DNA of 64,000 nucleotides from positions 32,001-96,000 of the forward strand of contig CM000432.1 in NCBI GenBank assembly GCA_000165345.1, read 5' to 3'. Made by a program: the position numbers and the translations under genes. The notes under the pieces are model-generated. The model ran no database searches, was not told the DNA's origin, and saw nothing but the letters and a program-made list of their open reading frames with translations. Shown here piece after piece: positions 5,084 to 58,499 of this stretch; the first letter of the stretch is position 1; each line of letters begins with the position of its first letter.

Positions 5084-5555
5084 TTTTTTTGTAAATTAGT
5101 AAATAATTGTCTTATTTCAATTTTCATTAATTTATCTATTTATCGATAATTATATCTGATTTTTCCCTCTTAATGCTTGCGACAATTACAAATATTTTTT
5201 TATACCGGTGTTTTAATATTAAACCGGTAATACACGTAATATATTTGAAACGTATTTTTATTATTTAAATTAAACAAAAATAAGATATATAATAAATATA
5301 CTTGTGTTTATTACATTTTGTATAATGTTTGTTTTAAGTATATTAATAGATTAAAAACTTACTATCTTAAGAATTTCCGAAATAGTTTTGTCACGCAATA
5401 ATATTAATTTGATTAGAATGATTAATAATACAAAAGAAAATGTTTAATATATTTTTAAAAAATAAAATAGTAATTTTAACTAATTTAATTCAATGGTTTA
5501 ATACAGAAATTTAGATATTATTTAGAATGTAATATAATATATATGCACGTATTTC

Positions 5556-23100: not shown

Positions 23101-25699
23101 AATAGCAAAAGCTAAGGCAAAATCAAAGTCTAATTCTGTCTTATCAAAGCTTCCTTCTAAAGTTAATAAAGAAACAAGCAAAGCTGAGAATGATTTAGAA
23201 AATGAGATAGAAAAAGATGATGAATCAAATAAAAAAGAAACTAAAAAGGAGGAAGATTCAATAGCAAAGCTTAAAGCAAAAGTACCTGTTAAGCCAAGTC
23301 CTTTATTGAAATCAAAGAGTGAAAAAGAAAAGGAGAAAGAAGAAGATAAAGATGAGGAGAAGAAAGAAAAGGACAAAGAGAAAAAGGAAAAGTTAAAAGA
23401 AAAAGAAGAGGAAGGTAAGGAGAAAAGTAATGAAAAGGATAAAGGAGAAGATAAGGATGAAAAGGATAAATCAAAAAGTAAAATAAAAGACTCTCAGAAA
23501 GAGGAAAAATTAGAAGAAACGGAGAAAAATTCATTAAAGAAAGAGTCCAAAGATGATGAGAAGAAAGAAAAGGAGGATCCAATAGCGAAACTTAAGGCGA
23601 AAGTACCTGTTAAGCCAAGTCCTTTATTGAAATCAAAGAGTGAAAAAGAAAAGGAGAAAGAAGATAAAGATGAGGAGAAGAAAGAAAAGGAGGACAAAGA
23701 GAAAAAGGAAAAGTTAAAAGAAAAAGGAGAGGAAGGCAAGGAAAAGGAGGAAGGTAAAGAAAAGGAGAAAGAGAAAGAAAAGGATGAAAAGGATAAATCA
23801 AAAAGTAAAACAAAAGATTTTGAGAAAGAAAAATTAAAGGAAACTGAAAAGGGCGAAAAAGAAGCCGAAAAAGATTCATCAAAGAAAGAGTCCAAAGATG
23901 AGGAGAAGAAAGAAAAGGAGGATCCAATAGCAAAACTTAAGGCAAAGGTACCTGTTAAGCCAAGTCCTTTATTGAAATCAAAGAGTGAAAAAGAAAAGGA
24001 GAAAGAAGAAGATAAAGATGAGGAGAAGAAAGAAAAGGAGGACAAAGAGAAAAAAGAAAAGTTAAAAGAAAAAGAAGAGGAAGGTAAAGAAAAAGAGAAA
24101 GAAAAGGTCAAAGCTCAAAAGAAAAAAGATGAAAAGGAAGAAAAAGATAAGGACGAAAAAGAAGATGATAAAGAAAAGAGTAAAGAAAGTGAAAATCTTG
24201 AAAAAAAACCAACTATTTCAGAAAAAGTTATAAACCCTGAAGGTAAAATTGATGAGAAGGACTCAGAAAAAGAAACTTTAAATCATAGTAAAACTAAGGA
24301 AATTGCTAAAACAAAGGCTGCAGCTCAACTTAAGGCAGCTATATTAGCAAGAGCATCATCTAAAAAGAATATATCAGCTGATAATAGTGAAGATTCAAAG
24401 TTAAAGAAATCTGAATCTAAGAAAGATATTATCAAAGATGAAGCCAAAGATGAAAGTAAGACAAATAAAGATGGAAAGGATCTCAAAAAAACTTTGAAAG
24501 AAGGTGAGGGTTCAATTTCAAAGGTTAAAGGAAAAGGTAAGGTAAAGACTAAGGCAAAGGCAAAAGAAGCCCCACCTCCAGCTGAAGAATCAAGTTGGTT
24601 CAGTGGTTGGTTTGGAACTTCAGCACCGGAAGAACCTCCCAAAGAAGAGGAGAAAAAAGAAGAGAAAAAAGAGGATGAAACGCCGCCACCACCACCACCA
24701 GCTGAGGAGTCAAGTTGGTTCAGTGGTTGGTTTGGAACCTCAGCACCTGAAGAACCACCTAAGGAGGATCCAGCGAAAAAACCTCCTAAAAAGCATTTAG
24801 TTAAGAAATCATCTTCTGTGAAGAAAGATGATGGCGAAAAGAAAGAAGAAAAGGAGGAAAAGAAGGAGGTGAAGAAAGACGAAAAAGAGGAGAAGAAAGA
24901 TGAAAAAGAGGATAAGAAAGACGAAAAGAAGGAAGGAATAGAGGAGACAAAAGAGAAGAAAGAGGAGAAGAAGGAAGGTGACGAAAAGAAGGATGAAACA
25001 GATAATAAGGAGGTAAAGGAAATTGCTGAAAAGGAAAAAACAGGGGTAGACCCAGAGAAAAAAGCTGTCAAAGCAAAGACAAAATCTAAAGCAAAGGCTA
25101 AAGCTAAGGAAGAGCCACCTCCTGCACCACCAGCAGAAGAATCAAGTTGGTTCAGTGGTTGGTTTGGAGCTTCAGCACCGGAAGAACCTCCTAAAGAAGA
25201 GGAGAAAAAAGAAGAGAAAAAAGAGGATGCACCACCAGCTGAAGAGTCGAGCTGGTTCGGCGGTTGGTTTGGAGCCTCCACACCTGAAGAGCCACCTAAG
25301 GAAGATCCAGCAAAAAGACCTACTCCAAAAGTACATCCGGCAAAAAAATCATCCTCCGTGAAGAAGGATAATGATGAAAAGAAAGAAGAAAAGGAGGAAA
25401 AGAAGGAGGAGAAAAAAGAGGAAAAGAAGGAGGAGAAGAAAGAGGAAAAGGAGGAAAAGAAAGAGGACGATGAAAAAGAAAAAAAAGTAGTAAAAGCTAA
25501 AACAAAAACAAAAGCAAAAGCAAAAGCCAAGGCTAAGGAAGAGCCACCTCCTGCACCACCAGCAGAAGAGTCAAGCTGGTTCAGTGGCTGGTTTGGAGCT
25601 GCTGCACCCGCAGAGCCCGAGCCAGAACCAAATAAAGAAGAGCCAAAGGAGGAACAAAAAACTGAGGAACCTGCTGCAACATCCTGGTGGGGATGGTAA
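20198..25699 (+). CDS. Modular tandem-repeat protein (1833 aa): a coiled-coil N-terminus, then ~30 copies of KEKEEAEAKAKK, three copies of a ~110-aa K/E-rich module, five EESSWFSGWFG aromatic islands, and a terminal SWWGW
   Basis: Uninterrupted 5.5-kb ORF from ATG 20198. The first ~480 aa have heptad-like K/E/L/Q coiled-coil composition. The repeat arrays keep the reading frame and show variation mainly at synonymous positions. An E2F-like box lies downstream at 25831. Confidence 0.7.
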   Translation: MTISRSSSSLNEDGKINRSKIVPYITREMSIAQLQDKKYHSFVQNTLADYQASAFDAQKIALEKDKELKELRDTQNSVKVSLKYYQEKCQQLENELKATSMGLLYGRKEKEQEREIARLSTEITSFEKKKEELETNLRYYQDREMYLQHELELKENELNKLSQEFATLTETYNSTYSELEKCKFDLSTEQNNNKTLENQLKVKNDEITKYKGSLTTKEAEINNLKNEIQKLNSMVEINKSEINTISEQLKLKQKECLDYSSKIQQIELDMRKNLDENEVLIKDLNSQITLTRNDLTQKVELINELNSRISTLDLKLQESSRDILEKEKTIGKLKAEQQITSLEADGLKTKIQIIEQEKTNIEQEIETILVEKKKIDEELKDTINRKNSKLDEALTYRIESAITAEREINQLKEKNQIIEFEKKMMEEKLEISNNNIKIKDDEIQQLKTTIQDLNRQNIKLENELHSLQESSRRESVENTFRSSRIGSNIVSSKINASSGSTVNTSENTISSNIATSNAETVEKVVNADTLVDTSIQDSAVNAASTTVKMPSSKSISSKSAISSLPKPKAKSAVKSAPATEENNGDQTISEPASISEVKSKAGSKSMPVSKSKSVIKAKSQVVAKSDMDSGQIVKEDNETKDNEDEAAKVRAQKEKEEAEAKALKEKEEAEAKAKKEKEEAEAKALKEKEEAEAKAKKEKEKEEAEAKAKKEKEEAEAKAKKEKEEAEAKALKEKEEAEAKAKKEKEKEEAEAKAKKEKEEAEAKAKKEKEEAEAKAKKEKEEAEAKAKKEKEEAEAKAKKEKEEAEAKAKKEKEEAEAKAKKEKEEAEAKAKKEKEEAEAEAEAKAKKEKEEAEAKAKKEKEEAEAKAKKEKEEAEAKAKKEKEEAEAKAKKEKEEAEAKAKKEKEEAEAKAKKEKEEAEAKAKKEKEEADTKEKEKTEIKENSKIDSDSEENSESKEKKSTGLLAKTIAKAKAKSKSNSVLSKLPSKVNKETSKAENDLENEIEKDDESNKKETKKEEDSIAKLKAKVPVKPSPLLKSKSEKEKEKEEDKDEEKKEKDKEKKEKLKEKEEEGKEKSNEKDKGEDKDEKDKSKSKIKDSQKEEKLEETEKNSLKKESKDDEKKEKEDPIAKLKAKVPVKPSPLLKSKSEKEKEKEDKDEEKKEKEDKEKKEKLKEKGEEGKEKEEGKEKEKEKEKDEKDKSKSKTKDFEKEKLKETEKGEKEAEKDSSKKESKDEEKKEKEDPIAKLKAKVPVKPSPLLKSKSEKEKEKEEDKDEEKKEKEDKEKKEKLKEKEEEGKEKEKEKVKAQKKKDEKEEKDKDEKEDDKEKSKESENLEKKPTISEKVINPEGKIDEKDSEKETLNHSKTKEIAKTKAAAQLKAAILARASSKKNISADNSEDSKLKKSESKKDIIKDEAKDESKTNKDGKDLKKTLKEGEGSISKVKGKGKVKTKAKAKEAPPPAEESSWFSGWFGTSAPEEPPKEEEKKEEKKEDETPPPPPPAEESSWFSGWFGTSAPEEPPKEDPAKKPPKKHLVKKSSSVKKDDGEKKEEKEEKKEVKKDEKEEKKDEKEDKKDEKKEGIEETKEKKEEKKEGDEKKDETDNKEVKEIAEKEKTGVDPEKKAVKAKTKSKAKAKAKEEPPPAPPAEESSWFSGWFGASAPEEPPKEEEKKEEKKEDAPPAEESSWFGGWFGASTPEEPPKEDPAKRPTPKVHPAKKSSSVKKDNDEKKEEKEEKKEEKKEEKKEEKKEEKEEKKEDDEKEKKVVKAKTKTKAKAKAKAKEEPPPAPPAEESSWFSGWFGAAAPAEPEPEPNKEEPKEEQKTEEPAATSWWGW
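22150..22990 (+). repeat. Coding tandem array with a 36-nt period, about 30 copies of KEKEEAEAKAKK
   Basis: Units of the form gaa gaa gct gag gcc aaa gct aag aaa gaa aag gag recur with gag/gaa, gct/gcc/gca and aag/aaa wobble changes. Occasional KEKEKEE (+6 nt) and EAEAEAEA variants occur. Confidence 0.85.
23257..24110 (+). repeat. Three tandem ~330-nt coding repeats (DPIAKLKAKVPVKPSPLLKSKSEKEKEKEEDKDEEKKEK...GKEK)
   Basis: The copies start near 23257, 23577 and 23917. The DNA is nearly identical between copies, with small indels. Confidence 0.8.
24580..25699 (+). repeat. Five interspersed PPPAEESSWFSGWFG(T/A)SAPEEPPKE islands in two alternating flavours, plus a terminal TSWWGW
   Basis: The gaatcaagttggttcagtggttggtttgga-type segments lie at about 24586, 24706, 25140, 25243 and 25569. 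They form a higher-order A/B repeat. Confidence 0.8.
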
Positions 25700-27193: not shown

Positions 27194-27205
27194 GGCGCGC
27201 GCGCC
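27194..27205. promoter_or_regulatory. GGCGCGCGCGCC palindromic GC box upstream of the secreted-protein gene; CATGCAT (27179-27185) and GCATGTA elements are adjacent
   Basis: caaGGCGCGCGCGCCaaa, ~200 bp 5' of ATG 27410. Confidence 0.4.
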
Positions 27206-36297: not shown

Positions 36298-36321
36298 AAT
36301 AATAATAATAATAATAATAAT
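36298..36321. repeat. (AAT)8 microsatellite immediately 5' of the Sec31 start
   Basis: aataataataataataataataat. The track's TTG start at 36321 lies inside it. The real ATG is at 36336. Confidence 0.8.
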
Positions 36322-36335
36322 TGAAATTTATTTCA

Positions 36336-39300
36336 ATGTTACTTAAAGAAATAGCGTCATCGGCAAAAATTAGTTGGTGTCCAATATCAACTAAGAATAA
36401 GCTGAGTTTGTTAGCTTTAGGAGGTTGTGGGCTAAATCCCTGTTTAAGTGTGGGATTAATTGATATTACCAATAATGGTAAAGATATTCAAAATATAGGA
36501 ACATCTTCTTTGAACTCAAGGTGCACATCAATAGCTTGGGGAAGTTTTAATCCAGAAGAGAATGCTTTGGGTCTTATTTGTACTGGAATGGAAGATGGTA
36601 ACATGAGTTTATTTAAGCCAATATTATCGACTTATGATTCAAATAGAAAAGATGGAGAAATCATGCTTGAAAGAATATGTGAAACAAACATTTATCCTTC
36701 TGCGGTAAGTTGTTTGGAATTCAATAAAACTGACCATCAGTTACTTGCATCTGGAGGAAATGATGGAAAAGTTTATGTTTTAGATTTGAGTGATGGTATA
36801 ACTGGAAATTTGAACTATTATGAGCCAGGAAAGGAAAATAAGCATGGAGATTCTGATGTGACTGCTTTGAAATGGAATCCAAAAGTCCCTCATATTATGT
36901 CATCTTCTTCAAGCAATGGTACTACAGCAATCTGGGATTTAAAGATGAAAAAAAGTGCTATTTCATTTAGAGATCCTGCTCAAAGATCTAGACCTTCGAC
37001 TTTAGCATGGGTTCCAAATCAACCAACACAAATAGTTGTGGGATATGATGATGATAGAAATCCCTCGCTCCAGTTATGGGATTTAAGAAATGTTTCATAT
37101 CCATTTAAAGAAGCTGTCTCTGCTCATCAAAAAGGAGTAATGTCTATAGAGTTTTCTCCAATTGATCCTAATTTATTGCTTTCTTCTGGAAAGGATGGAA
37201 AAACAATATGTTGGACATTATTAAATAACCAGCAGCCAGAAATATTTACAGAAATTCATTCTCAGCAATGGAGTGTTCAAAACCAATGGTCTCCAAATAT
37301 TCCTGGAATATTCGCTACAGCATCTCACAATGACAAGGTTAGTATCTATTCTTTATCATCACATTCCAGTACAACAACTTATATTCCATCTTGGTATCAT
37401 AAACCATGCGGAGTGAATTTCACATTTTCTGGTAAATTAGTTTCATTTTCGAGTAAATCTACTGGTGGAGTACCCCAATTTAACTTATATAGAGTACCTA
37501 CAAATCCTGAAATAACTGCTCATGCTGATATGTTTGATCAGTTACTCAACCAAGGAGACTTCATTGGCTATTGTCAGAAAAAATGTCAGGAATCAGAAAG
37601 TTCCAATGAAAAGCTTGCTTGGAGTCTGGTTGAAAATATGTTTTCTGAAGATTCTGTTGAAAGACGTCTATATATTGCTTCACTTTTGGGATTCGATTTC
37701 AATAATGCAAGTACAACAGCAAACCAGTTTTTAGGGAGAAAGTGTGGAGTAATATCACAGCAAGAAGAACTTCAAAAAGAACTTTCTGCTATTAATCAAC
37801 AAAACAATATCAGCTTAATCCAAGATCCTGCCTCTACTTCATTTACTGGAATGAGCTATCAAAATAGTCCAACTAATATGAATGGTAATAATATTTCTGG
37901 TTTTCAAACTTTATCGGGACAGATGGTATCCAATCAATCTTTGGACCCAGAAAAATTCTTCCAACAATTAGGAGAGAGTGAATCTCCCAATAATAATAAA
38001 GATAAAGAAACTGAATTTAATCAAAAAGATGACGAGCCTTATACATCTGGACAAGATTACTCTAGTGGAACAAGATTTTGTTGCGAAGGCGCTGACAATG
38101 AAATGATTGAAAATCCATTCGCCAGTATTCCTCAGGGTCAAGAAAACCAAACAAGCCATGATTTGTTTAATTCAAGTGGCTTCCCTGGAAGTAGTATGAA
38201 GTGTAATCACGGAGTTTATATACAACAAGGTACTGAGCTTTCTCATTCTAATCTAAGTGTTGGTAAGCTGCACAACTTAAGACAAAATGAATGGACAAAA
38301 CAAGAGGAGGATGTTATTAATGAACTACTTGTAACAGGAAATATTGATTCTGCAATTGATGTTTGTGTGCAAAGAGGATTTTTCGCTGAAGCTTTACTTT
38401 TGGCGGTAAAATTCGGAGGTATTTACCTTGACTATGTACAAAAACAATATTTGAAAAAACACGAATGTCAATATACCCAAAAGGTTTTAGGTCATGTGAT
38501 TATGGATGATCTTGAAGATTTTGTTAAGAGCAGTAACTTGGACCGTTGGAATGAAACTTTAGCAATTATTTCAATCTATACCCAACCTAATGGAATAAGA
38601 CTTGGAGATTATTCTTACCAGTCAAAGTATACAATGGAGAACCTCTCTGAATTGTTAGCTAAGAGATTGCAGGAAGAAAAGTTTGATGTTCGATCTGCAT
38701 TAATTTGCTATCTGTGTGCTCGAAACTTTAGAAATTCTATTGAAATTTGGGGTAACATGGCATCTTGCCAAAGCTCACAAATCATTGGACTTCAAGACTT
38801 TGTCGAAAAAGTAGCAATTCTTCAGGCAGCAACAAGATTTAATGGTAACGACGAGAATATTACAAAACAGGTTGTCCAATATGCTGAAATCCTTGCTAAT
38901 TCTGGAAGGATTGTAGCAGCAATGAAATTCCTTTCCTCCTTAGCTTCTAATGACTACTCCATTAACTCATCAACTTTAAGAGATAGGATATACAATGCAG
39001 CTCCAGAGCTCATGAGTTCTTTGGGATTTAACAAACCAAATTTCCCTTTCACCATTATCGATGTTGCTCCATTTGTGAATGCTAATGCAAATATTTACCA
39101 GCATCAACAACATCCAAACCAACAGCAACATGGTATGTTTGGAGTTAACAACTCGTTCCAATCAAATTTGAATATTGGCATGAATTCCTATCCAATGATG
39201 AATAATGGTAACAACAATACCGGTATGGGTATGGTGGGACAAATGATGCAACCTCCTCCTCTTTCATCTCATGGGGTGCCACCTTCAGGACCTTCTTCAA

Positions 39301-40415
39301 TCCACTCGAACCAGATGCATCCTTCTCCTCCCCCTCCTCCTCCCTCATCCATCCATTCTACAATAAATAATGGAATGCCAGGCGGTATTCAAACTCAATG
39401 TCAGGCATTTAGGCCAGGAATTCCATCTAGCTCGGGACTCCCTCCTCCTCCTCCTCCACCCTCTACTACTTCCTCTATTCCTCAAATGATGAGGCCATCT
39501 TCATCCTTACCATCAACTGGTAATGGGATGATGTCAAATCAGCTACCTCCGCCTCCTTCACAAAATATGGCTGCTCTAACTCGTCCAAGTTCTCCAAATG
39601 TAGCATATTCTCAGAACAATGTCGCACTTGGAGTTGGATCAGGATTGTCTTCCACAAACCAAGGTGTAAAACAATTCTTACCTCAGTCGGCTCAGCCTCC
39701 ACCAGTAAATCCTCCTAATTCTTTTATGAACAGCTTAAACAAGAACAATTTTGGTACTAACAATGTCCCTCCTGCTCCTATACCTACATCTATTCCAGCA
39801 CCTTCTCAAATCCCATCTTCAGTTCCTCCTGTGGCTCCTCCTCCAATGCCAAATTCAAATAATAGCAGTATTATTGGAGGAGGAATGCAAGGAGTCTTGA
39901 ATCAAGGAATCAGTCAAGTCGCTCCTCCATCAAACAGATCATCAATTACTACTGCCCCTCATAGTGGAGCTACACCACCAATACCAGGAATGCCAGTACC
40001 ATGGCCACTACCAACAGCAACACAACAATTGAATTCAACAACATCAACAACAGCAAACGCAAATAAACAGATTCAGGAAGCATCTAAAAAGAATAATTCC
40101 CAGATAGTGGGAAAACCTTTATCTGGTCAACTATTGGATATGGTAACAAATGTGGTGAATTCTAATTTGAATAGCATTTTTGCAAATGACCCAAGAAAGA
40201 AGATGGATGCTCAGAAAAGATTTGATGAGCTTTTTGAAAATCTAAGAGTTGGAAATATTTCAGAAACTGTTTCATCCAAAGTTGTTAATCTTTGCCAAGC
40301 CTTGCAAACAGGGGATTACTTGACTGCAAATAAAATCCATATTGATTTGAGTTCAACAGAGTGGGAGAATAATAAAAACTGGCTGATGGCTTTTAAGAGA
40401 ATTATTCCCAAATAA
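36336..40415 (+). CDS. SEC31: COPII coat subunit Sec31 (WD40 propeller, alpha-solenoid, proline-rich region)
   Basis: The N-terminus MLLKEIASSAKISWCPISTKNKLSLLALGG matches the Sec31 start (MKLKEI.RTA..AWSP.....LLA.GT). WD40 repeats follow. A ~350-aa proline-rich segment (PPPPPPSSIHS, LPPPPPPPST) lies near the C-terminus. A conserved C-terminal domain follows. Confidence 0.8.
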   Translation: MLLKEIASSAKISWCPISTKNKLSLLALGGCGLNPCLSVGLIDITNNGKDIQNIGTSSLNSRCTSIAWGSFNPEENALGLICTGMEDGNMSLFKPILSTYDSNRKDGEIMLERICETNIYPSAVSCLEFNKTDHQLLASGGNDGKVYVLDLSDGITGNLNYYEPGKENKHGDSDVTALKWNPKVPHIMSSSSSNGTTAIWDLKMKKSAISFRDPAQRSRPSTLAWVPNQPTQIVVGYDDDRNPSLQLWDLRNVSYPFKEAVSAHQKGVMSIEFSPIDPNLLLSSGKDGKTICWTLLNNQQPEIFTEIHSQQWSVQNQWSPNIPGIFATASHNDKVSIYSLSSHSSTTTYIPSWYHKPCGVNFTFSGKLVSFSSKSTGGVPQFNLYRVPTNPEITAHADMFDQLLNQGDFIGYCQKKCQESESSNEKLAWSLVENMFSEDSVERRLYIASLLGFDFNNASTTANQFLGRKCGVISQQEELQKELSAINQQNNISLIQDPASTSFTGMSYQNSPTNMNGNNISGFQTLSGQMVSNQSLDPEKFFQQLGESESPNNNKDKETEFNQKDDEPYTSGQDYSSGTRFCCEGADNEMIENPFASIPQGQENQTSHDLFNSSGFPGSSMKCNHGVYIQQGTELSHSNLSVGKLHNLRQNEWTKQEEDVINELLVTGNIDSAIDVCVQRGFFAEALLLAVKFGGIYLDYVQKQYLKKHECQYTQKVLGHVIMDDLEDFVKSSNLDRWNETLAIISIYTQPNGIRLGDYSYQSKYTMENLSELLAKRLQEEKFDVRSALICYLCARNFRNSIEIWGNMASCQSSQIIGLQDFVEKVAILQAATRFNGNDENITKQVVQYAEILANSGRIVAAMKFLSSLASNDYSINSSTLRDRIYNAAPELMSSLGFNKPNFPFTIIDVAPFVNANANIYQHQQHPNQQQHGMFGVNNSFQSNLNIGMNSYPMMNNGNNNTGMGMVGQMMQPPPLSSHGVPPSGPSSIHSNQMHPSPPPPPPSSIHSTINNGMPGGIQTQCQAFRPGIPSSSGLPPPPPPPSTTSSIPQMMRPSSSLPSTGNGMMSNQLPPPPSQNMAALTRPSSPNVAYSQNNVALGVGSGLSSTNQGVKQFLPQSAQPPPVNPPNSFMNSLNKNNFGTNNVPPAPIPTSIPAPSQIPSSVPPVAPPPMPNSNNSSIIGGGMQGVLNQGISQVAPPSNRSSITTAPHSGATPPIPGMPVPWPLPTATQQLNSTTSTTANANKQIQEASKKNNSQIVGKPLSGQLLDMVTNVVNSNLNSIFANDPRKKMDAQKRFDELFENLRVGNISETVSSKVVNLCQALQTGDYLTANKIHIDLSSTEWENNKNWLMAFKRIIPK

Positions 40416-40891: not shown

Positions 40892-41749
40892 TTAAATGAT
40901 TTTACTATTCTTTTGAAATTTACTGATATGATTCTTCCAAGATTGTTGTTTCTGTTTTGCTTGAGTTTCAAATATTTCATTTTTTTGTTGTTTTTTAATA
41001 ACCGAAATTTTTTTCTTCTTTTCAAGTTTAGTCTTTTCTGTGTCGTAAGACTTAATTAAAAGATTTTCAGGTATTTTATATCCAGCAGGAGTGGTAATAA
41101 TTGATGTGGAATCCAACGAATCGATAGTTTTATCGTGATTTAAATTGTTTCTAGAACTTTTACTAATCATTCTGACCCTATCATATGTAACATTTTCTTC
41201 TTGATTATAATCCAAGTATTTAATATTATATCCATTTTTAGTTAAACCAACAATTACAGAATTGTACCAATTACCATCTTCTTCAAATAAAACTTGAACC
41301 TTTTCTCCTACAGATAATCCCTTAAATTGTGGTAAAAGCTTTAAATCCTGAAATTGCAAACTAATTGTTTCTGGAATTTGACCAAATATCGAAATTAAAT
41401 AATAATCATTTATAGTGTTAGAAGCTGATTTTGGGTCTTTTGATTTAATTCTCCCAAATCTTTTGTTTCCTTTATAAAAAACTTCAACAATTTTTCCAAT
41501 ATTTACATCTTCAGGATTTTCATCACTGTTTTTCCTTTTATTATCAATAAGTTCCTCCACTAGTTGTATAACTTGTATTAAATCATCTCTAACTTCTTTA
41601 AGAATATCATAATTTGGGTCATCAGTCGTTAGTTTTAGAAGTTGTTCATCTATCTTTCTTAGTTGTTCCTGATTATCTTCAAATCTTTTTAACAATTCCT
41701 CATATGTTTCTTGAAAAATCTCCATTAATTTACTATTGACACGTGTCAT
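40892..41749 (-). CDS. Tudor-domain protein (SMN/SPF30-like)
   Basis: The Tudor-like core is GEKVQVLFEEDGNWYNSVIVGLTKNGYNIKYLDYNQEENVTYDRVR. The N-terminus is coiled-coil and the tail is K/Q-rich. ATG at 41749..41747. The first codons (ATG ACA CGT GTC AA) lie within a TGACACGTGTCA palindrome. Confidence 0.55.
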   Translation of the reverse strand: MTRVNSKLMEIFQETYEELLKRFEDNQEQLRKIDEQLLKLTTDDPNYDILKEVRDDLIQVIQLVEELIDNKRKNSDENPEDVNIGKIVEVFYKGNKRFGRIKSKDPKSASNTINDYYLISIFGQIPETISLQFQDLKLLPQFKGLSVGEKVQVLFEEDGNWYNSVIVGLTKNGYNIKYLDYNQEENVTYDRVRMISKSSRNNLNHDKTIDSLDSTSIITTPAGYKIPENLLIKSYDTEKTKLEKKKKISVIKKQQKNEIFETQAKQKQQSWKNHISKFQKNSKII

Positions 41750-41923
41750 CCCGCCACATGATTAATTATATGTAGTGGGAAAATTTTAATAAAAATAATG
41801 AAAAATTATCGCAAATATTAAAGATTCAAATATATCTTTTGGTTGATATACAATATTAGAAACCAAGTTTGAAATCGACTTTAACAAATTTTTTTTTGTT
41901 TTAATTAATTTAGGAAGTGAAAA

Positions 41924-43710
41924 TGGATGTAGAGCTCAATGACTTATTTAAGGAGCTAGAAAGAGTACAAAAACGTGAGATAAATAAGAACAAAATAAAT
42001 GAGAGAACATGTATTGAAATTTTATATAAGCTAATAAAGAAGAAAGGTCTAAATTTAATTACTAGCTTAGATGGGGAAACTTTTTACACACATAAATATT
42101 TGCTCAATAATATCCAAAATTTATTGGAGTCTAAGGGAAGAATTTCAATACATGATATTTCAAAAACAATGAAAATTTCAATAGAAGTAATATTAAAGCT
42201 AGTAAAAGATATGGAAAAAGATAATAACTACATTTTTTACAAGAGTGATATAATGACAAGAAAATATGTTGATGATATTTTTTATGATTTAAATCAAGAG
42301 TTACAAGATTTGCATATAGTGGGTTTAATGAAAATTTCAGAAAAAACGGATCTTTCTATTGAATTTATTAAAGAAGAAATTAAGAAAAGAGTGAATAATG
42401 GAGAGTCTGAGATTAAAGGTAATATAGTTTTTGAAACTAATAATAATCCATTGATAATTTCTAATACATATTATAAAATTATTGAATATATGATTAAAGG
42501 TGCATTATTAGTAGCTAAAAAGCCACTATATTTTGATGAAATTATAGATATAAAAATTCAAGATATCTCAATAATAATACAATCAACAAAAAATCTTATA
42601 GAAAAGAACTGGATTAAAGGCTTTATTTACGAAAATAAAATGTATATTCCCGACATTTTTATTAAAGAAGAAATATTATTTTTAATAAATTATTTTAAAA
42701 ATAATGGTTTTTTAGAAATTGAAAAAATTAAAGGTATTTTGAGATATTCTAATTCAAATTTGGAAATTAAAAATCAAAGAATTATTGAATGGTCAAAATT
42801 ACATTTAAGTGATAATATTATAATAATTGATGATTTATTTATTATTAATACTAATAAGGTAGAAATTATAAGGGATAATATTTTACACTCGTGTTTTGAG
42901 CTGAATCCTGGATACATTTACATTAATCACCTTCTTCCATACATTTTAACGAGTGAAATTAACAAAAATTACCATTTTGATATAATAAAACTAATTTATA
43001 AACTAAATAATCACCCAGCTGAAATACAAAGCAATGATTGGCTTTTCGTAACTTATGATGGACCTGAGTCATTATATATAACAAACCTTGACCGTTCTTA
43101 CTTTAAAATTCAATTTGAATTCGAAAGTAATGATATTAAAAATGACTTTGAAGAATTACAAGATATTTCAATCAAAAAATTTCAATTTAATTCAAGAAAA
43201 CATATTTTTAATAATAATTTTAACGCACTTTTATTTATCACAAACTTTAACTTAATTATTAATTCAAGAATAATTTGTAAATTCCAAGATTTTGTTTTTA
43301 GTAAACTAGAAAATACTATAAACAGTATGATTCTCCCTTATTTTCAACTTCTCCCAATCCCAAGTTCTGAGTTTAAGCCTATTAAGTCAAATGAAAAACA
43401 AAAAAACAAACAAATTCATAATTTCATTAATGAATTAGTTTCCAAAAATAATATAAAGGAACTTTTCCTTTCTGAGTTCAAGCAAGATTGGAATGAAATT
43501 ATTAATGATAACCCAAATAATATAGAAATTTTCTCATCAATAAGTTCTTCAAACAATATTCAAGCTAATGAAGATGATTTTCAAGATTTATTATGGCATC
43601 TAATTATTTACTCAATCGCACCATTTATTGTATATATCTATAATAGACGAATGAAATTTGTCTATGATCCCTCCAATGTTTCAAGAACCTTCCATATTGA
43701 AAAAGATTAA
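41924..43710 (+). CDS. UFL1: E3 UFM1-protein ligase 1 (UFL1) homolog
   Basis: The N-terminus (DLFKELERVQKREINKNKINERTCIEILYKLIKKKGLNLITSLDGETFYTHKYL...GRISIHDISKTM) aligns with human UFL1 ([41 protein letters not shown]...GGRVNIVDLQQVI). The first ATG is at 41924; the track's start is GTG. Confidence 0.7.
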
Positions 43711-43995
43711 TAACTAGGGCAATAGGATATATTTTAATTTATATTTTTTCCGGGGTTTAAAGCTTTCAACCTGCATTTTTTTTATTTGTTAATTTTGGCG
43801 CGTAAATCCTATTTTTACACAAACTTTTTTTTGAATTAATCTTAACCAGAAAAATTTACTAAATACATTAATAAATCATAAAGTAGTGAAATAAATTGAG
43901 CATTTAAGATTAATTAACTTAATTGATTAAATTCATTAATATCTATAATGTTTCTTAATTTCTAATTATTAATATTGGAATATTATGTTGCTCAA

Positions 43996-46197
43996 ATGAA
44001 CAGGTAAGTATTAAATATCTTTCTTATCCAATAAATACATTACACATTATTTATATATTATAAATAACACTAATAATACCCATAATTAGTTGTGTGTTAG
44101 TGTATTATTGCTTATTTGTGAATCTTTCTAACCAACCATTATAGGGTTTTTCAATCATTACGTAGAAGAGTTTCAAGCTCAGAAGCTAGTAATACTCAAA
44201 ATTCCACTGATTGTAGTACTGACAATTGTAATAATTCTCAAGGTACAAAGAATAAGTCAGATTCGAAAAATACAAAAAATATCAGTAAATCATCAAATTC
44301 TTGTAATACTTCCTCAAAGCCAAGCAGTGATTCAAATAGTGTAAATGATGATCCAAGCTTATCCAAAAATAATGAAATTCAAAGTACAATATCTTCTGGT
44401 ACTGATCCTCCTTCAAACAATGATAACTCTTCGTCAAATTTAAATACATTTCTAAATGTTGATTTAAGTAACAATATAAAACCAAAAGAAATTTTAAATG
44501 ATAAATACAATAATTCATTTCAAAGTATTCAGATTAATAAGTCAGATTCAATTAATGGTGATATCAACATTTCTTTTCCTCCAATAGAATTTATTAAAAA
44601 TGAAAAATTTGCCTTCCTTCAAGCTTATTCTTTAGATTATGAAGATGGAACAAATAGGTCTTCTGATGAAGATTATAATGATAAAAAGGAGTCTAATCAC
44701 GAAATCTCTAACAAAAATAATGATCTAAACAATTATCATTCTCCTGAAGAATCCAATTTTTTAAGCAATACTAATCTTTTATTACCAATTGGAATTGTTG
44801 AAACAAATCATGGAATTTCACTTACTGATGATCCATTCTCTGCACTTGCTCTATTGCAAAATATGAAATCTCCTAATGAAATTCTATTACTTATTAAGAA
44901 AAAACTTATTGCATGTTGTATTACATTCAACTTTACTAACAACACTTATTCAAATCTTAAAGAGAAGAAAAGAGAAACCTTATTAGAGCTTGTTGAATAT
45001 ATTAACAATAATGACCATATTTTTCAAGAAGAAATTATCCCAGATGTACTCTTAATGATCACAAGTAATATATTTAGGCCATTTAATCAATGCCATGCTA
45101 ATCTTAATACAGGAAATTCTTTCTTACAATCTAACAATGCTTCTGGTAATTCAAGCATTCAGTCATCTAATTCTAATAATAATGGCTCATCATTAAACGG
45201 TTCTGTTGGTAATTCATTATCAGATTCAAAAGATGACGAACAACTTTTAGAACCTAGTTGGCCACATTTGCTTGTTATTTATGAGTTCTTTCTTAGATTT
45301 GTTATTAGTCCCCAATTCAGTACAAAAGTTGCAAAAAAATATATTGATAATACTTTCATACTTAAACTTATTGATTTATTTCAAAGTTTTGATCCTAGAG
45401 AAAGGGATTATCTTAAAACTATTCTACATCGAATCTATGGTAAAATTATGCCAAGAAGAAGTTGTATTAGAAAAGCTATGAAACATATCTTTTTGAGAGT
45501 TATTATTGACGGCGAACCTTATAATGGGATTGCTGAATTACTTGAAATTTTTGTCTCAATTGTCAATGGCTTTACAATTCCTCTTAAAGAAGAACATAAA
45601 ATATTTCTTGAAACTGCACTAATACCCTTACATAAAGCAAAATATATTTCTTCTTTCCACCAACAATTGATATATTGCTTAATACAATACATTGAAAAAG
45701 ATACAAAATTGTCTGTACCAATTATTGAAGGTGTTCTAAAGTATTGGCCAATTACTAACTCATCCAAACAAATTTTATTTTTAAATGAACTTGAAGAACT
45801 TTTTGAAATTACTCCTACAAATTACATTGAACCAATTCTAATTCCAATTTTTGAAAGACTTGCAAGTTGTATTCAAAGTCCACATTTTCATGTTGCTGAA
45901 AGAGTTTTATATCTTTGGAACAATGATATAATTGTTAATCTTATTAATGAATATAAATATGAAATATATCCTGTATTGATTAAGGCACTATCATGCAATG
46001 GAAAAAAACTACATTGGAATCCCACTGTACATGGGTTATCTTTTGTTGTTAATAAAGTTTTATCAGATACTGATCCTGAATTATTTTCACAAATTATTGA
46101 GCAATATAATGACGATAGTGCTAATATTGAAATTCAAAAAAAAGAAAGAGAAGAATACTGGAAGTATATTATTGAGCTTGCAGAAAGTATGGATTAA
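43996..46197 (+). CDS. PP2A regulatory subunit B56 (B'). Main exon 44166..46197, with a proposed 8-nt 5' exon at 43996..44003 (ATGAACAG)
   Basis: The core (ETLLELVEYI, WPHLLVIYEFFLRF, RERDYLKTILHRIYGK, HKIFLETALIPLHKAK, KYWPITNS, SPHFHVAERVLYLWNN) is collinear with human B56. The frame stays open for about 240 codons upstream of the core as an S/N-rich extension. This extension has no in-frame ATG before codon 44863, so a spliced 5' exon is needed. ATGAACAG followed by GTAAGT at 44004 is the only upstream candidate. The first frame-compatible AG is at 44164..44165. The placement of this 5' exon and intron is low-confidence. Confidence 0.75.
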
Positions 46198-46450
46198 ACT
46201 AAGAAATTATTACTTTAAAAATAGCTACTAGTGAAATTATTTTACTAATTTTGAATATGTATAGAATATTCGCTTTTTGAGTAATTTTAAAACTAAAATC
46301 AGTTTTTTTTTGTAAACTGGAAGAAAAAAAATCCAATTATTTTAATTCATTATCTCTGAGATTTCACTATTAATAAATTCCAATGCATTACTTCCACCAG
46401 ATAACCAGTTACTTCCATAAATACCATGGAAACCTAAAGAAATTATTAAA

Positions 46451-47895
46451 TTATATAAAATGAGTTATTTTTTGTTGATTAAGAAAATTAATAAACTCAC
46501 CAGTAAATATTTTCAATTTGACATTTACTTTTAATTTTAATAAAATTTCATACATTAACCTTCCCTCATCATAAAGTATATCACTTTTCATTAACACAAT
46601 ACTTGTTTTTGGGAATTTCCTGAGAATATTTGCAGGAGCTAATAAAGGTTGTGATCTCCAATCAAAATAGTTTTCTATATACTTAGATTGATATTGTTTT
46701 TCAAACCATAATAATGAATTCAAATTTAAAAATCCAAATCTAAAGTTTTTTAATTTAGAATTTGTGATACACTTTTGGCATAGTGCAGGATATATTAATC
46801 CCAAGAATTTAACATGATCAACCCATTTACAATAATTATGATATTTTTTTGTTAAACTATTGTTACGTCTCTTATTTTGATCTTTAATACTCAAACAGGA
46901 TGCAATTGAAGATGTTGCTAAATTACCTCCAGCTGAATCTCCTAAAATAACAAGCTTATTTGGATCTAATCCAAATTTTTCTGCATTACAATGTATCCAT
47001 GAAATAGATGCAATAACATCTTCCAATGGTATTGGATACCTCCATTTTGGTGACTTTCTATATTCAATATAAGCAATAACACTTGGTTTATTTAATTTTC
47101 CTAATTCAATTGCATGCCTTTGTAATGTTCTTTCATATGTATCAAAATCGCCAAATACAAATCCTCCACCATGAACAAATATTACAATTCCTGGAGATTC
47201 TGTTTTGCTATCTATATTATGAGTAGAAATATTATCATTTTCATAAATAATCTTGACTTTTGACTCATTAAAATATAAGTCTGAACAGAATTTTTTTGTA
47301 GAGCATTTTATTGGTCTAGTAAGATTTTGTTTTAATTTATAATTCCTCTCTAATAATTCTTTACTAACTATAAAGTTGACAACAAGATCATCCTTATTTA
47401 TTTGTCTATCCATATCCATTGAAATACCATCAGTTAGTTCGCCAAATTCATCAAATTCAATCCAGTGCCTATTTCCCATAATATTTTCAATCTCTAAAGA
47501 TTCATATTCATCTAAAACGTTCCATTCTTTATTTTCACCATGACCAATATTGTGTTCAACAATAATACCCAAATCATTTTTACTTGAAAAACCAAAGATC
47601 AAATTTTTGTAAATAGAACAATCACCTTTTCTAAACTTTTCTATTTCTTCATAATTATCGAGTGAAACTACATTTCTAAATAATGTATATATATAAATCG
47701 CTCTTCCAACAATATTCTCTGTTAATGTTAGATTATCTTCATTGAATAAATTATATATTATTATTCTAAAAAATTATTATAAATATCTCTTCATTACTTG
47801 TTTAGTTACACCAATTCAATGACTTACCCTATTAATAATACTATAATTACAGTATATTTTCTTTTTAAAATTCTTGTTATATTCATTTGACTCAT
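46451..47895 (-). CDS. Alpha/beta-hydrolase fold-3 esterase/lipase (arylacetamide deacetylase-like). Two exons on the minus strand: exon 1 is 47828..47895 and exon 2 is 46451..47765
   Basis: HGGG oxyanion motif (IFVHGGGFVFGD) and GDSAGG nucleophile elbow. Exon 1 encodes a signal anchor (MSQMNITRILKRKYTVIIVLLIG). On the minus strand it ends at GTAAGT (47827..47822). A 62-nt intron ends at TTTTTTAG (47767..47766), in frame with the long ORF. AADAC-family enzymes are type-II membrane proteins, which fits. Confidence 0.7.
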
Positions 47896-48207
47896 TTTCC
47901 TAAACTATTAAAATCAACAAAATATTACTAAAAAATTTATAAAAAAAATGTTTTCTATTTATCTTTCATTTCAGTACACAAAAAAAATATTACAGTTTTT
48001 AATTGACACGTGTCATGTGGGGAAGTCTTTTGCATGTATACAATCTAACCGGTATTACGTGTCAAGTGGTCGAAAATTATTAAAAAAAATTAGTATTAAA
48101 AATAAACTTATACAAATTTAAAGTAATTTTTGTACAAATATTAGAGAAATTATGAATCGTTTAAAATAGTTAAATTATAGCGATAAACATTTTCTTCGGT
48201 TAATGGT

Positions 48208-49236
48208 TCAATGATGATAATAACCGTTATAATAATTGATATTATTGCTATTAAATTGATTAATATTGTATTGGGTATGTTGATTAGGAGAAAGATTATA
48301 AGATTTTTGAAATTCTTGATCTATATTATAATTATTGATGTGTCTGTTTATTGATTGCTTATTTATTATATTTTGCTGATTATTTTGTGATCTATTGAAA
48401 TGTTTTGGATATATTTGTGTTGATTGAGTAGTTGAAGTAGGAATTTGCATACTCTGAGGATATATTCCTCCGCTGTAGTAATTTAATATTGGTTTTTTAT
48501 TTTGCCCCAATGATTCATTTTCATATGATATATTTTTTAATTGGCTCTTGCTAGCATATAATAATCTTTTTAGTCTAAAATCCTTACTGGAAACAGATTT
48601 AATATCTTGAACTTGAACTGTTCTTCTCTTAGCTCTTCTAGTAAAATTCCAAGAAAAGCTTGTCAAATCTCTAACAAAAAGTTCGCAAGCAATTGCCAAT
48701 AGTGCAGGAACTTCACTTCCAATCATATGATTTACGGCTCCAGAGCACTTGATTATTTTCTTGATTTTTGTATGAGGAAGACATCGGCTCAAAGTTTTCA
48801 ATTCATCTTTACTAAAAACGGGTATATTTGATTGATTTTCATGTGAAATATATTCTTTTGAAATAATATTAATGTCTTCTCTTGAATATATACTTGAGTT
48901 ACTCACTAAAGAGGATGATGAAATAACGGAATTAGAACTTGATGATGTAGATCTAGATGATGGAGCCATATATGATGCAGAATTTAAGGTAAATGAAGAA
49001 AGTGATGTTTGATTAAGTTGATGTGAGCCAACAAATTCTGAAATTGCAGTATCACTACCAGATTTATATGAATCGTTTATATAATTATCACTCAAATCTA
49101 CCTGGCTTATTGTTTCCATTCCATTATACTGAGGTTCACTTTGAGTAGTTAGCATGCTATCAACATTATAGTCAGCTATTTCCTTATTATTTTGTATTAA
49201 GTAGTCCATTATTCCTTGATTATTTGGAAAGCTCAT
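48208..49236 (-). CDS. Histone-fold protein of the NF-YC/HAP5, Dpb3 or NC2-alpha class, with a long S/N/Q-rich tail
   Basis: LPHTKIKKIIKCSGAVNHMIGSEVPALLAIACELFVRDLTSFSWNFTRRAKRRTVQVQDIKSV parallels NF-YC [43 protein letters not shown]...KRRTLQRNDIAMAI. The first ATG is at 49236..49234; the track's start is TTG. Confidence 0.55.
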   Translation of the reverse strand: MSFPNNQGIMDYLIQNNKEIADYNVDSMLTTQSEPQYNGMETISQVDLSDNYINDSYKSGSDTAISEFVGSHQLNQTSLSSFTLNSASYMAPSSRSTSSSSNSVISSSSLVSNSSIYSREDINIISKEYISHENQSNIPVFSKDELKTLSRCLPHTKIKKIIKCSGAVNHMIGSEVPALLAIACELFVRDLTSFSWNFTRRAKRRTVQVQDIKSVSSKDFRLKRLLYASKSQLKNISYENESLGQNKKPILNYYSGGIYPQSMQIPTSTTQSTQIYPKHFNRSQNNQQNIINKQSINRHINNYNIDQEFQKSYNLSPNQHTQYNINQFNSNNINYYNGYYHH

Positions 49237-58142: not shown

Positions 58143-58169
58143 TGGCGCCATACGTGTTCTGCATGCAAT
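58143..58169. promoter_or_regulatory. TTGGCGCCA box followed by TGCATGCA, upstream of the SET8-like gene
   Basis: gcTTGGCGCCAtacgtgttcTGCATGCAat. Confidence 0.4.
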
Positions 58170-58499
58170 ATTTTTATTAATAGGAAATTAACTTGGAATG
58201 GTTATAAGGAGAAATTATTGCAAATCTTTTAATTATTAAGTTTATTTTAAATATATAACAAAATTGATTTTCAGCTAATAACAAGAGTCACTATAATATA
58301 AAGAAGAATTAAAAATAAATAATAAATAGCCATTTGAGGGGGAAAGTGGGGGGTTGGTGGAGCAGAAAACACTAATAAATTAGAAGAGAATTTAGAGAAT
58401 TGAAACTAGATAAAAGCTAATTCAGATGATAGTCTAGTATATCATTAATGGAATCTGTGTGAAACGTAAAAAGTAACTAAGGGATCAGATGAGGCAATT

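What the first reader, a model, noticed from the sequence alone, without database searches (positions are those of the whole stretch)
41737..41750. Identical 14-nt sequence TTGACACGTGTCAT, containing the palindrome TGACACGTGTCA, at two unlinked loci
The same 14-mer occurs at 41737-41750 and at 48004-48017.
- At 41737 it overlaps the ATG of the Tudor gene on the minus strand and lies about 170 bp from the divergent UFL1 start.
- At 48004 it sits in the promoter of the esterase gene.
- Both copies abut CATGTGG(C/G)GG: the revcomp of 41750-41760 is CATGTGGCGGG, and 48015-48024 is CATGTGGGGA.
- A third ACGTGTCA lies at 48057-48064.
- A chance 14-mer match within 64 kb of AT-rich DNA has a probability of about 1e-4 or less, and the core is GC-rich.
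TGACACGTGTCA is a perfect 12-bp palindrome around an ACGT/CACGTG core. That is the expected shape for a dimeric bHLH- or bZIP-like factor site, or an ApiAP2 site, and it may mark a co-regulated gene set.
Basis: seen in the sequence. Interest (0 to 1): 0.6.

Follow-up and report, generated by a model that had tools for sequence, protein, structure and literature searches.

The report
Conserved ACGTGTCA promoter element in Cryptosporidium
The repeated 14-mer is real, and its core, ACGTGT(C/T)A, has been kept in the same promoter positions across up to nine Cryptosporidium species, so it is most likely a binding site for an unidentified transcription factor that published motif lists for this parasite do not name as a family.

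Summary
The window is Cryptosporidium parvum Iowa II chromosome 4, positions 32,001-96,000.

Corrected for look-elsewhere, the exact repeat alone is only modestly unlikely (P about 0.03). The core is much stronger evidence:
- ACGTGTCA gives 5 strand matches against 0.22 expected.
- ACGTGT gives 11 against 2.9 expected, and 8 of 9 sites lie outside ORFs.

Cross-species footprinting is decisive. Upstream of the esterase gene, two ACGTGT sites 48-53 bp apart are kept in all nine intestinal-clade species examined, inside otherwise unalignable DNA. Site B, ATTACGTGTYAAGTGG, is invariant apart from a 4-nt insertion in one species. The Tudor/UFL1 copy is kept only in the parvum-to-ubiquitum clade.

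The conserved unit is the asymmetric ACGTGT(C/T)A. The 12-bp palindrome and the E-box CACGTG are not conserved as such.

The element matches no published C. parvum ApiAP2 binding motif and none of the 25 catalogued upstream motifs. A FIRE hit, TACGTG, was folded into the 'G-box-like' family in a 2013 supplement.

Best reading: a conserved transcription-factor site whose factor is unknown. bZIP-like or CG-1-like factors are analogies only. Co-regulation of the flanking genes is untested.

The parts
41735..41749 (.). Copy 1 of the 15-mer ATTGACACGTGTCAT. The palindrome TGACACGTGTCA is at 41737-41748, in the 197-bp Tudor (cgd4_270) / UFL1 divergent intergenic region.
41741..41748 (+). Conserved core ACGTGTCA at locus 1. 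It is kept in C. parvum, meleagridis, chipmunk genotype I and ubiquitum, and has degenerated to CATGTCA / CATGTAA in C. canis and the SRR31860986 species.
41750..41757 (-). E2F-like box GTGGCGGG abutting copy 1. It matches the GGCGGG core of published Motif 4 and is conserved in four species.
41774..41782 (+). AGTGGGAAA box, conserved with copy 1 in the parvum-to-ubiquitum clade.
41723..41725 (-). Conserved start codon of the Tudor gene (Met9 of the 285-aa ORF; N-terminus MEIFQETYEEL). The upstream ATG at 41747-41749 inside the motif is not a conserved start.
   Evidence: annotated lengths of 272-277 aa in the other MEIFQ-start species
48002..48016 (.). Copy 2 of the 15-mer (site A), with the palindrome at 48004-48015. 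It lies 108-121 bp upstream of the esterase (presumed cgd4_300) ATG and downstream of the stop of the HAP5-like NF-YC gene cgd4_310.
48008..48015 (+). Site A core ACGTGTCA. The hexamer ACGTGT is invariant in all nine intestinal-clade species.
48015..48022 (+). G-box-like ATGTGGGG (published Motif 2, DTGTGGGG), overlapping the end of site A. It is conserved in five species and degenerate in four.
48031..48036 (+). TGCATG (AP2_1-like) box inside the conserved module.
48048..48053 (.). ACCGGT box next to site B. It is kept in parvum, meleagridis and felis (bovis has GCCGGT) and in C. andersoni, which lacks the ACGTGT sites.
48054..48069 (+). Site B, ATTACGTGTCAAGTGG. The consensus ATTACGTGT(C/T)AAGTGG is invariant across nine species, except for a 4-nt insertion in SRR31860986. 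It sits 48-53 bp from site A in every species.
58152..58157 (+). ACGTGT between an E2F site and TGCATGCA (TTGGCGCCATACGTGTTCTGCATGCAAT), 350 bp upstream of SET8 (cgd4_370). ACGTG is kept in C. ubiquitum (ACGTGG) and lost in C. ryanae.

Best explanation
ACGTGT(C/T)A is a cis-regulatory DNA element, most likely the binding site of a sequence-specific transcription factor. It sits in compact Cryptosporidium promoters next to known E2F-like, G-box-like and TGCAT boxes.

In the esterase promoter, two copies in direct orientation about five helical turns apart (48-53 bp) form a module conserved across the intestinal Cryptosporidium clade. One copy sits in the Tudor/UFL1 bidirectional promoter.

Shown here:
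- The core is enriched in the window.
- It is biased to non-coding DNA.
- The core and the A-to-B spacing are under purifying selection.
- No coding or RNA-structure signal is present.

Inferred: that a protein binds it and that it controls transcription. The factor is unknown. The invariant ACGT core, tolerating CAC/TAC/AAC on one side and requiring GTGT(C/T)A on the other, resembles bZIP ACGT-core sites (the plant ABRE, ACGTGT[C]) or the CAMTA CG-1 motif MCGTGT. It does not resemble a bHLH E-box or any measured C. parvum AP2 motif. The perfect 12-bp palindrome and the 15-nt identity between the two loci come from a shared core plus lineage-specific flanking bases.
For: 1. Enrichment: ACGTGTCA 5 matches against 0.22 expected; ACGTGT 11 against 2.92; 8 of 9 ACGTGT sites lie outside long ORFs, binomial P = 1.6e-4.
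2. Footprinting at the esterase promoter, nine species ranging from GC 26% to 54% at the locus:
   - 21 of the 31 invariant alignment columns fall in the two sites.
   - In an alignment-free test, the only parvum 8-mers shared by at least 5 of 6 distant species are ACGTGTCA, TATTACGT, ATTACGTG and TTACGTGT.
   - Site A to site B spacing is 48-53 bp in all nine.
3. The locus 1 core is conserved in four species together with the adjacent E2F-like box.
4. In about 230 kb of syntenic sequence from other species, ACGTGTYA occurs almost only at these orthologous positions.
5. The blocks carry 1- and 4-nt indels and show no codon periodicity. There is no Rfam hit, no tRNA, and no consensus RNA fold (-2.47 kcal/mol, 0 covarying pairs).
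6. Precedent: FIRE found CACGTA/TACGTG over-represented in co-expression clusters 39, 42, 45 and 83 of Oberstaller 2013 Table S3.
7. ACGTGT is the classical ABRE bound by bZIPs and part of the CAMTA motif MCGTGT (PMC3621073). C. parvum is listed with one non-CCAAT bZIP (PMC3734150 Table 2).
Against: - No binding, expression or transcription-start data were available, so transcription-factor binding is inferred from conservation only.
- Genome-wide frequency and positional bias could not be measured. Only 64 kb of C. parvum plus about 230 kb from other species were seen.
- Plain ACGTGT hexamers elsewhere are poorly conserved: 35760 and 63106 are lost in the nearest species examined, and 58152 is only partly kept. 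The functional motif must therefore be longer than the hexamer, and the number of true sites in this window is small (three).
- Copy 1 lies only 12-23 nt from the real Tudor ATG, so it may be transcribed and act at the RNA or core-promoter level.
- The esterase block could formally belong to the 3' region of the upstream NF-YC gene.
- C. andersoni lacks both sites.
Confidence: 0.7

Rival explanations
1. Chance coincidence: two unrelated AT-rich intergenic regions happen to share a 14-15-mer, and the palindrome has no function.
For: Repeated 14-mers are common in this window (264 observed, 194 expected). The look-elsewhere P is only about 0.03. GC-containing 12-bp palindromes are not rare. The left half of the palindrome at locus 1 is not conserved, so the full 15-nt identity is partly lineage-specific.
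Against: Enrichment of the core 8-mer and hexamer, bias to non-coding DNA, and invariance of the core at orthologous positions in up to nine species within otherwise unalignable DNA cannot be explained by chance.
Confidence: 0.04
2. An E-box (CACGTG) bound by a dimeric bHLH factor.
For: CACGTG is present in both palindromes, occurs nowhere else in 64 kb, and is kept at site A in 7 of 9 species.
Against: The most conserved site, B, is TACGTG in all nine species. Site A is AACGTG in bovis and ryanae, and locus 1 is TACGTG in meleagridis. The constraint is therefore on ACGTGT, not CANNTG. bHLH is not among the transcription-factor families listed for C. parvum or the apicomplexans in the papers read. 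That absence comes from the literature and was not tested here.
Confidence: 0.04
3. An ApiAP2 binding site, either for one of the AP2 domains that gave no motif on protein-binding microarrays or as a composite with the adjacent G-box.
For: AP2 proteins are the main transcription-factor family in the phylum. Several C. parvum AP2 domains (in cgd3_1980, cgd3_2970, cgd6_1140, cgd6_5320) have no known motif. An asymmetric 8-bp core suits a monomeric domain. The 2013 study grouped TACGTG with G-box-like motifs, and AxGTGG follows the core at both esterase sites.
Against: None of the measured motifs (TGCAT, CACACA/GTGTGT, G.GGGG, GGTGCACC, GCGTGCA, AAAA) resembles ACGTGTCA. ACGT-core motifs appear nowhere in the ApiAP2 review text.
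Confidence: 0.15
4. An RNA-level or core-promoter element: a signal in the 5'UTR of the Tudor and esterase mRNAs, in the 3'UTR of the NF-YC mRNA, or at the transcription start, rather than an upstream transcription-factor site.
For: Copy 1 is 12-23 nt from the conserved Tudor ATG. The esterase block is 140-200 nt downstream of the NF-YC stop on the same strand. In both loci the core has the same orientation relative to the downstream minus-strand gene, reading T(G/A)ACACGT.
Against: There is no conserved RNA structure or covariation and no Rfam family. The distance to the ATG varies widely (about 12 against about 110 and 160 nt). The element is embedded among known DNA motifs (E2F, G-box, TGCAT). 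Other ACGTGT sites occur in either orientation.
Confidence: 0.07

Closest known systems
Catalogued C. parvum upstream motifs (Oberstaller et al. 2013, PMC3734150): E2F-like, G-box-like, AP2_1 (TGCATGCA), and the FIRE hit CACGTA/TACGTG listed under 'Motif 2'
   Same: Short conserved elements in compact promoters. The new element sits directly beside E2F-like (GGCGGG), G-box-like (ATGTGGGG) and TGCATG boxes. TACGTG, found by FIRE in clusters 39, 42, 45 and 83, is contained in site B (TTACGTGT).
   Different: None of the 25 consensus motifs, and none of the six families in the 2025 review (PMC12246861), contains an ACGT core. TACGTG was merged into the G-box family and never described as a separate element. 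No trans-factor has been proposed.
Plant ABRE / G-box ACGT-core elements bound by bZIP dimers (ACGTGT[C], CACGTG, TACGTG hybrids)
   Same: Invariant ACGT core. The preferred flank GTGTC is identical to the ABRE ACGTGTC. G-box (CACGTG) and A/G-hybrid (TACGTG) versions coexist, and a palindromic version occurs at some sites.
   Different: The organism is different. No Cryptosporidium bZIP has been shown to bind it. One half-site is much more constrained than the other, which is unusual for a homodimer.
CAMTA CG-1 domain motif MCGTGT / MCGCGB
   Same: Every conserved site matches MCGTGT exactly (ACGTGT), and the motif is asymmetric, as expected for CG-1.
   Different: Whether any Cryptosporidium species has a CG-1 domain protein was not tested. 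The conserved positions extend beyond the hexamer, to (C/T)A.
bHLH E-box CACGTG
   Same: The two C. parvum palindromes contain a perfect E-box.
   Different: The E-box is not the conserved unit: TACGTG and AACGTG occur at conserved sites. bHLH is not among the transcription-factor families listed for C. parvum in the papers read.

Membership tests
Known C. parvum ApiAP2 binding motifs (TGCAT, CACACA, G-box G[T/C]GGGG, GGTGCACC, GCGTGCA) | The sequence matches a motif measured on a protein-binding microarray | tested here: not met
   ACGTGTCA and TGACACGTGTCA match none of the motifs listed in PMC4117751 or PMC12246861 Table 4. Only the flanking ATGTGGGG matches the G-box.
bHLH E-box | CANNTG (here CACGTG) is the unit under constraint | tested here: not met
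   Site B is TACGTG in 9 of 9 species. Site A is AACGTG in bovis and ryanae. Locus 1 is TACGTG in meleagridis.
bHLH E-box | A bHLH protein is encoded by the organism | not testable with these tools
   No access to the Cryptosporidium proteome. bHLH is not among the families in the transcription-factor tables read.
bZIP ACGT-core element (G-box / ABRE type) | Invariant ACGT core with specificity set by the flanking bases | tested here: met
   ACGT, and the hexamer ACGTGT, is invariant at site A and site B in nine species and at locus 1 in four. The flank GTGT(C/T)A is conserved.
bZIP ACGT-core element (G-box / ABRE type) | Dyad symmetry of the two half-sites (dimer binding) | tested here: inconclusive
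   Site A is a perfect palindrome in parvum, chipmunk genotype I, canis and SRR31860986. Site B and locus 1 in other species are asymmetric.
bZIP ACGT-core element (G-box / ABRE type) | A bZIP protein of the organism binds the site | not testable with these tools
   PMC3734150 Table 2 lists one non-CCAAT bZIP in C. parvum. No binding data exist.
CAMTA / CG-1 motif | The sequence matches MCGTGT or MCGCGB | tested here: met
   All conserved sites read ACGTGT. Motif definition from PMC3621073.
CAMTA / CG-1 motif | A CG-1 domain protein is encoded by the organism | not tested
   A literature search returned no paper linking CG-1 or CAMTA to Cryptosporidium. No proteome search was possible.
Dispersed repeat / duplicated segment | Similarity extends beyond the motif into the flanks | tested here: not met
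   Identity stops after 15 nt. The flanks differ: ttactATTGAC...CATcccgcc against ttttaATTGAC...CATgtgggg.
Structured non-coding RNA | Rfam match, or a conserved fold with covariation | tested here: not met
   No Rfam hit at E<=1 across 41500-48400. RNAalifold gives -2.47 kcal/mol with 0 compensatory pairs. No tRNA.
Functional promoter cis-element (phylogenetic footprint) | Conserved at orthologous positions in divergent species while the surrounding non-coding DNA is not | tested here: met
   Nine-species alignment and alignment-free k-mer sharing. Spacing is conserved at 48-53 bp.
Functional promoter cis-element (phylogenetic footprint) | Genome-wide enrichment and positional bias relative to ATG or transcription start; co-expression of target genes | not testable with these tools
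   Only 64 kb of C. parvum was available. Within it the core is enriched and 8 of 9 sites are non-coding. The stored part of the expression-cluster table does not include cgd4_270, cgd4_280 or cgd4_300.

The most novel reading that the evidence does not exclude
ACGTGT(C/T)A is the recognition site of a non-AP2, non-E2F transcription factor, for example the single non-CCAAT bZIP of Cryptosporidium or an unrecognised DNA-binding domain. That factor would control a small regulon, perhaps 5% of promoters, that arose or was retained in the intestinal clade and is absent from the gastric species. Paired sites five helical turns apart would act cooperatively. Previous motif surveys would have missed this regulatory axis because they merged TACGTG into the G-box family.
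Probability: 0.3. Interest if true: 0.55.

Novelty: new member of a known kind. Interest (0 to 1): 0.42.

Why it matters
Gene regulation in Cryptosporidium is currently explained almost entirely by E2F/DP and ApiAP2 factors. The authors of the motif surveys note that many upstream motifs have no known binder. A deeply conserved ACGT-core element with fixed spacing, lying outside both systems, would:
- point to an additional transcription factor;
- give a concrete 16-bp probe (ATTACGTGTYAAGTGG) for pull-down or DAP-seq;
- give a compact, well-defined promoter (cgd4_300, about 180 bp) for reporter dissection in this genetically difficult parasite.

The work also corrects the likely start codon of cgd4_270.

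Tried and rejected
- Literature string searches for CACGTG, ACGTGTCA and TGACACGT together with apicomplexan names returned only primer hits.
- ACGT-type strings are absent from the main text of these papers:
  - Oberstaller 2013 and 2014;
  - Mullapudi 2007;
  - the 2019 ApiAP2 review;
  - the 2025 ATAC-seq/polycistron preprint;
  - the AP2-F paper and the 2024 macrogamont paper.
- The NAR 2014 supplements are not held.
- Co-expression could not be checked. The stored part of Table S2 stops at cluster 129 and lacks cgd4_270, cgd4_280 and cgd4_300. Clusters 39 and 42, which carry TACGTG, contain mostly hypothetical proteins with no common theme.
- The RNA hypothesis failed on Rfam, ARAGORN and RNAalifold.
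- Plain ACGTGT hexamers next to E2F sites were followed into C. ubiquitum and C. ryanae: 58152 is partly conserved and 63106 is not. The 35760 site is not conserved in C. meleagridis. The hexamer alone is therefore not a reliable predictor.
- A search for CG-1/CAMTA, bZIP or bHLH in Cryptosporidium literature found nothing specific.
- A genome-wide count was impossible.

Full report
**Origin of the window.** The Tudor-domain protein encoded at 40892-41749 (minus strand) is found exactly in NCBI assembly GCA_015245375.1, contig CP044419.1. The SET-domain gene at 58500-60170 is CpSET8, cgd4_370, reported at CM000432:90,500-92,170 (PMC9487757). The window is therefore Cryptosporidium parvum Iowa II chromosome 4, positions 32,001-96,000.

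Genes around the finding:

| Window coordinates | Strand | Gene |
|---|---|---|
| 36321-40415 | + | WD40/Sec16-domain protein |
| 40892-41749 | - | Tudor protein, cgd4_270 |
| 41923-43710 | + | UFL1 |
| 44854-46197 | + | PP2A B56 subunit |
| 46342-47895 (NCBI model) | - | alpha/beta-hydrolase esterase, presumably cgd4_300 |
| 48208-49236 | - | HAP5-like NF-YC histone-fold protein, cgd4_310 |

**Checking the observation.** TTGACACGTGTCAT occurs exactly twice, at 41736-41749 and 48003-48016. The identity is 15 nt, ATTGACACGTGTCAT, and the flanks then diverge, so this is not a duplicated segment.

**Is it more than chance?**
- Repeated 14-mers are common in this AT-rich DNA: 264 observed against 194 expected once the repetitive ORF at 20198-25699 is masked.
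- This repeat is the least probable of them. Still, 3% of 300 Markov-1 simulations produce one equally improbable.
- GC-containing 12-bp palindromes are also not unusual: 4 observed against 1.56 expected.
- The core is what stands out:
  - ACGTGTCA gives 5 strand matches against 0.22 expected.
  - ACGTGT gives 11 against 2.92 expected.
  - CACGTG occurs only in the two palindromes.
  - 8 of 9 distinct ACGTGT sites lie outside long ORFs, which make up 74% of the window (P = 1.6e-4).

**Cross-species footprinting.** Using UFL1, B56 and SET8 orthologues, I fetched syntenic loci from ten other Cryptosporidium species or genotypes:
- C. meleagridis, chipmunk genotype I, C. ubiquitum, C. felis and C. 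canis;
- an unidentified species from run SRR31860986;
- C. bovis, C. ryanae and C. andersoni.

*Esterase promoter.* Both ACGTGT sites are present in all nine intestinal-clade species, even though locus GC content ranges from 26% to 54% and the rest of the intergenic DNA cannot be aligned.
- In the nine-species alignment, 21 of the 31 invariant columns fall in the two sites. Site B reads ATTACGTGT(C/T)AAGTGG everywhere, with one 4-nt insertion in SRR31860986.
- An alignment-free test agrees. The only parvum 8-mers shared with at least 5 of 6 distant species are ACGTGTCA, TATTACGT, ATTACGTG and TTACGTGT.
- The distance from site A to site B is 48-53 bp in every species.
- C. andersoni, from the gastric clade, lacks both sites but keeps GTGGGGA-TGCATGC-ATACCGGTA in the same intergenic region.

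*Tudor/UFL1 promoter.* ACGTGTCA and the adjacent CCCGCCAC and AGTGGGAAA boxes are kept from C. parvum to C. ubiquitum. The site is CATGTCA in C. canis and CATGTAA in SRR31860986. C. bovis and C. ryanae lack UFL1 altogether.

**What is actually conserved.** The 12-bp palindrome is not.
- At locus 1 the left half varies: GGTACGTGTCA, GGCACGTGTCA, TGCACGTGTCA.
- Site B is never symmetric (TTAC|GTGTCA).
- Site A is AAACGTGTTT in bovis and ryanae.

The constrained unit is the asymmetric ACGTGT(C/T)A, preceded by C, T or A. This argues against a bHLH E-box, because CANNTG is not maintained. It shows that the perfect palindrome and the 15-nt identity in C. parvum combine a shared functional core with lineage-specific flanking bases.

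[quoted passage not shown] They lie in opposite orientations relative to the conserved core, so they are neighbours rather than one composite motif.

**Start codon of the Tudor gene.** The ATG inside copy 1 is not a conserved start.
- Chipmunk genotype I has an in-frame TAA between it and the next Met.
- C. ubiquitum, C. canis and SRR31860986 have no ATG at that position.
- Six species share the N-terminus MEIFQE(T/S)...; the other MEIFQ-start species are annotated at 272-277 aa.

The real start is Met9 at 41723-41725, so the palindrome lies 12-23 nt upstream of it.

**Alternatives tested.**
- RNA: no Rfam family at E<=1, no tRNA, and no consensus fold or covariation in the nine-species block.
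- Coding: 1- and 4-nt indels and full-codon invariance inside short islands do not fit coding sequence.
- The hexamer alone is weak evidence. The 35760 and 63106 sites are not conserved in the nearest species examined. The 58152 site (TTGGCGCC-AT-ACGTGT-TC-TGCATGCA, upstream of SET8) keeps ACGTG in C. ubiquitum but is lost in C. ryanae.
- In about 230 kb of syntenic sequence from other species, ACGTGTYA occurs almost only at the orthologous promoter positions. The element therefore looks rare and specific, found in roughly 2 of about 37 promoters seen.

**Comparison with what is known.**
- None of the 25 over-represented upstream motifs of Oberstaller et al. 2013 has an ACGT core.
- The same is true of the six families in the 2025 review and of the binding motifs measured for C. 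parvum AP2 domains.
- Several other papers contain no such string.
- One precedent exists. In Table S3 of the 2013 paper, FIRE reports CACGTA/TACGTG (Z = 6, robustness 6/10) in clusters 39, 42, 45 and 83, filed under the G-box-like 'Motif 2'. Site B contains TACGTG.
- Outside the phylum, ACGTGT is the classical plant ABRE bound by bZIPs and part of the CAMTA CG-1 motif MCGTGT (PMC3621073).
- C. parvum is listed with one non-CCAAT bZIP.

The links to plant bZIP and CG-1 factors are analogies, not tests. I could not search the proteome for bZIP, CG-1 or HLH domains.

**Most likely mechanism.** The element is a transcription-factor binding site in compact promoters, working in modules with E2F, G-box and TGCAT sites. 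The paired, phase-conserved arrangement at the esterase promoter suggests cooperative binding. Conservation, enrichment and the absence of RNA or coding signals are shown. Binding, effect on transcription, and the identity of the factor are inferred. Whether the flanking genes are co-regulated could not be tested, because the expression-cluster table is truncated in the held copy.

**Verdict.**
- It is a new member of a known kind, a promoter cis-element in a genome where several are catalogued.
- It is of moderate interest to specialists in apicomplexan gene regulation.

Noticed in passing
window 41723-41749 (minus strand): The annotated 285-aa start of the Tudor gene cgd4_270 is probably wrong. 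The conserved start is Met9 (MEIFQETYEEL), giving 277 aa. The upstream ATG is disrupted or absent in chipmunk genotype I, C. ubiquitum, C. canis and SRR31860986.
   Followed up: yes
L010 8676-10001 and L011 8674-10001 (C. bovis, C. ryanae): No UFL1 (E3 UFM1 ligase) gene is called between Tudor and B56 in C. bovis and C. ryanae, and the gap is only about 480 bp. It is present in the other eight species, including C. andersoni. This suggests lineage-specific loss.
   Followed up: no
window 5203-5237 and 48048-48062: ACCGGTA is over-represented (5 matches against 0.63 expected). It sits next to an ACGT-core element in two promoters: ATACCGGT...AACCGGTAATACACGTAAT upstream of the SNF2/RING helicase gene, and AACCGGTATTACGTGT at the esterase gene. 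The two loci share the 10-mer TATTACGTGT. C. andersoni keeps ATACCGGTA in the esterase upstream region although it lacks ACGTGT.
   Followed up: partly
window 27194-27205: A G+C-only 12-bp palindrome, GGCGCGCGCGCC, lies in an intergenic region. CCTCCCCACA, CATGCATC and CATGT boxes lie within about 40 bp upstream of it. It is probably an extended E2F-type site in a dense motif cluster.
   Followed up: no
window 20198-25699: A long ORF (1833 aa) contains GC-rich tandem-like repeats, for example GCCTTGGCCTCAGC six times within 22340-22952. It shows strong GC and AT skew and has long antisense ORFs. It accounts for most of the improbable repeated 14-mers in the window.
   Followed up: no
L009 (Logan SRR31860986 contig, 16,265 bp): A syntenic contig from an unidentified Cryptosporidium species: UFL1 is 62% and B56 91% identical to C. 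parvum, and GC is 46%. It carries the full TGACACGTGTCA palindrome at the esterase promoter.
   Followed up: partly
L008 (C. canis) and L007 (C. felis): The C. canis locus has 54% GC, against 28% in C. parvum. The ACGTGT sites and their spacing survive this compositional shift.
   Followed up: partly
window 58143-58170: A tight cluster of three motifs upstream of SET8 (cgd4_370): TTGGCGCC (E2F), ACGTGT and TGCATGCA (AP2_1), all within 28 bp. The block TTGGCGCCATACGTG...CATGCAATATTTTTATTAATA is conserved in C. ubiquitum.
   Followed up: partly
PMC3734150 Additional file 1, Table S3: The published 'Motif 2 / G-box-like' family pools quite different FIRE motifs (CACGTA/TACGTG, GCACAC, ACACAT) with TGTGGGG. 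An ACGT-core motif may therefore have been hidden by the family merging.
   Followed up: partly
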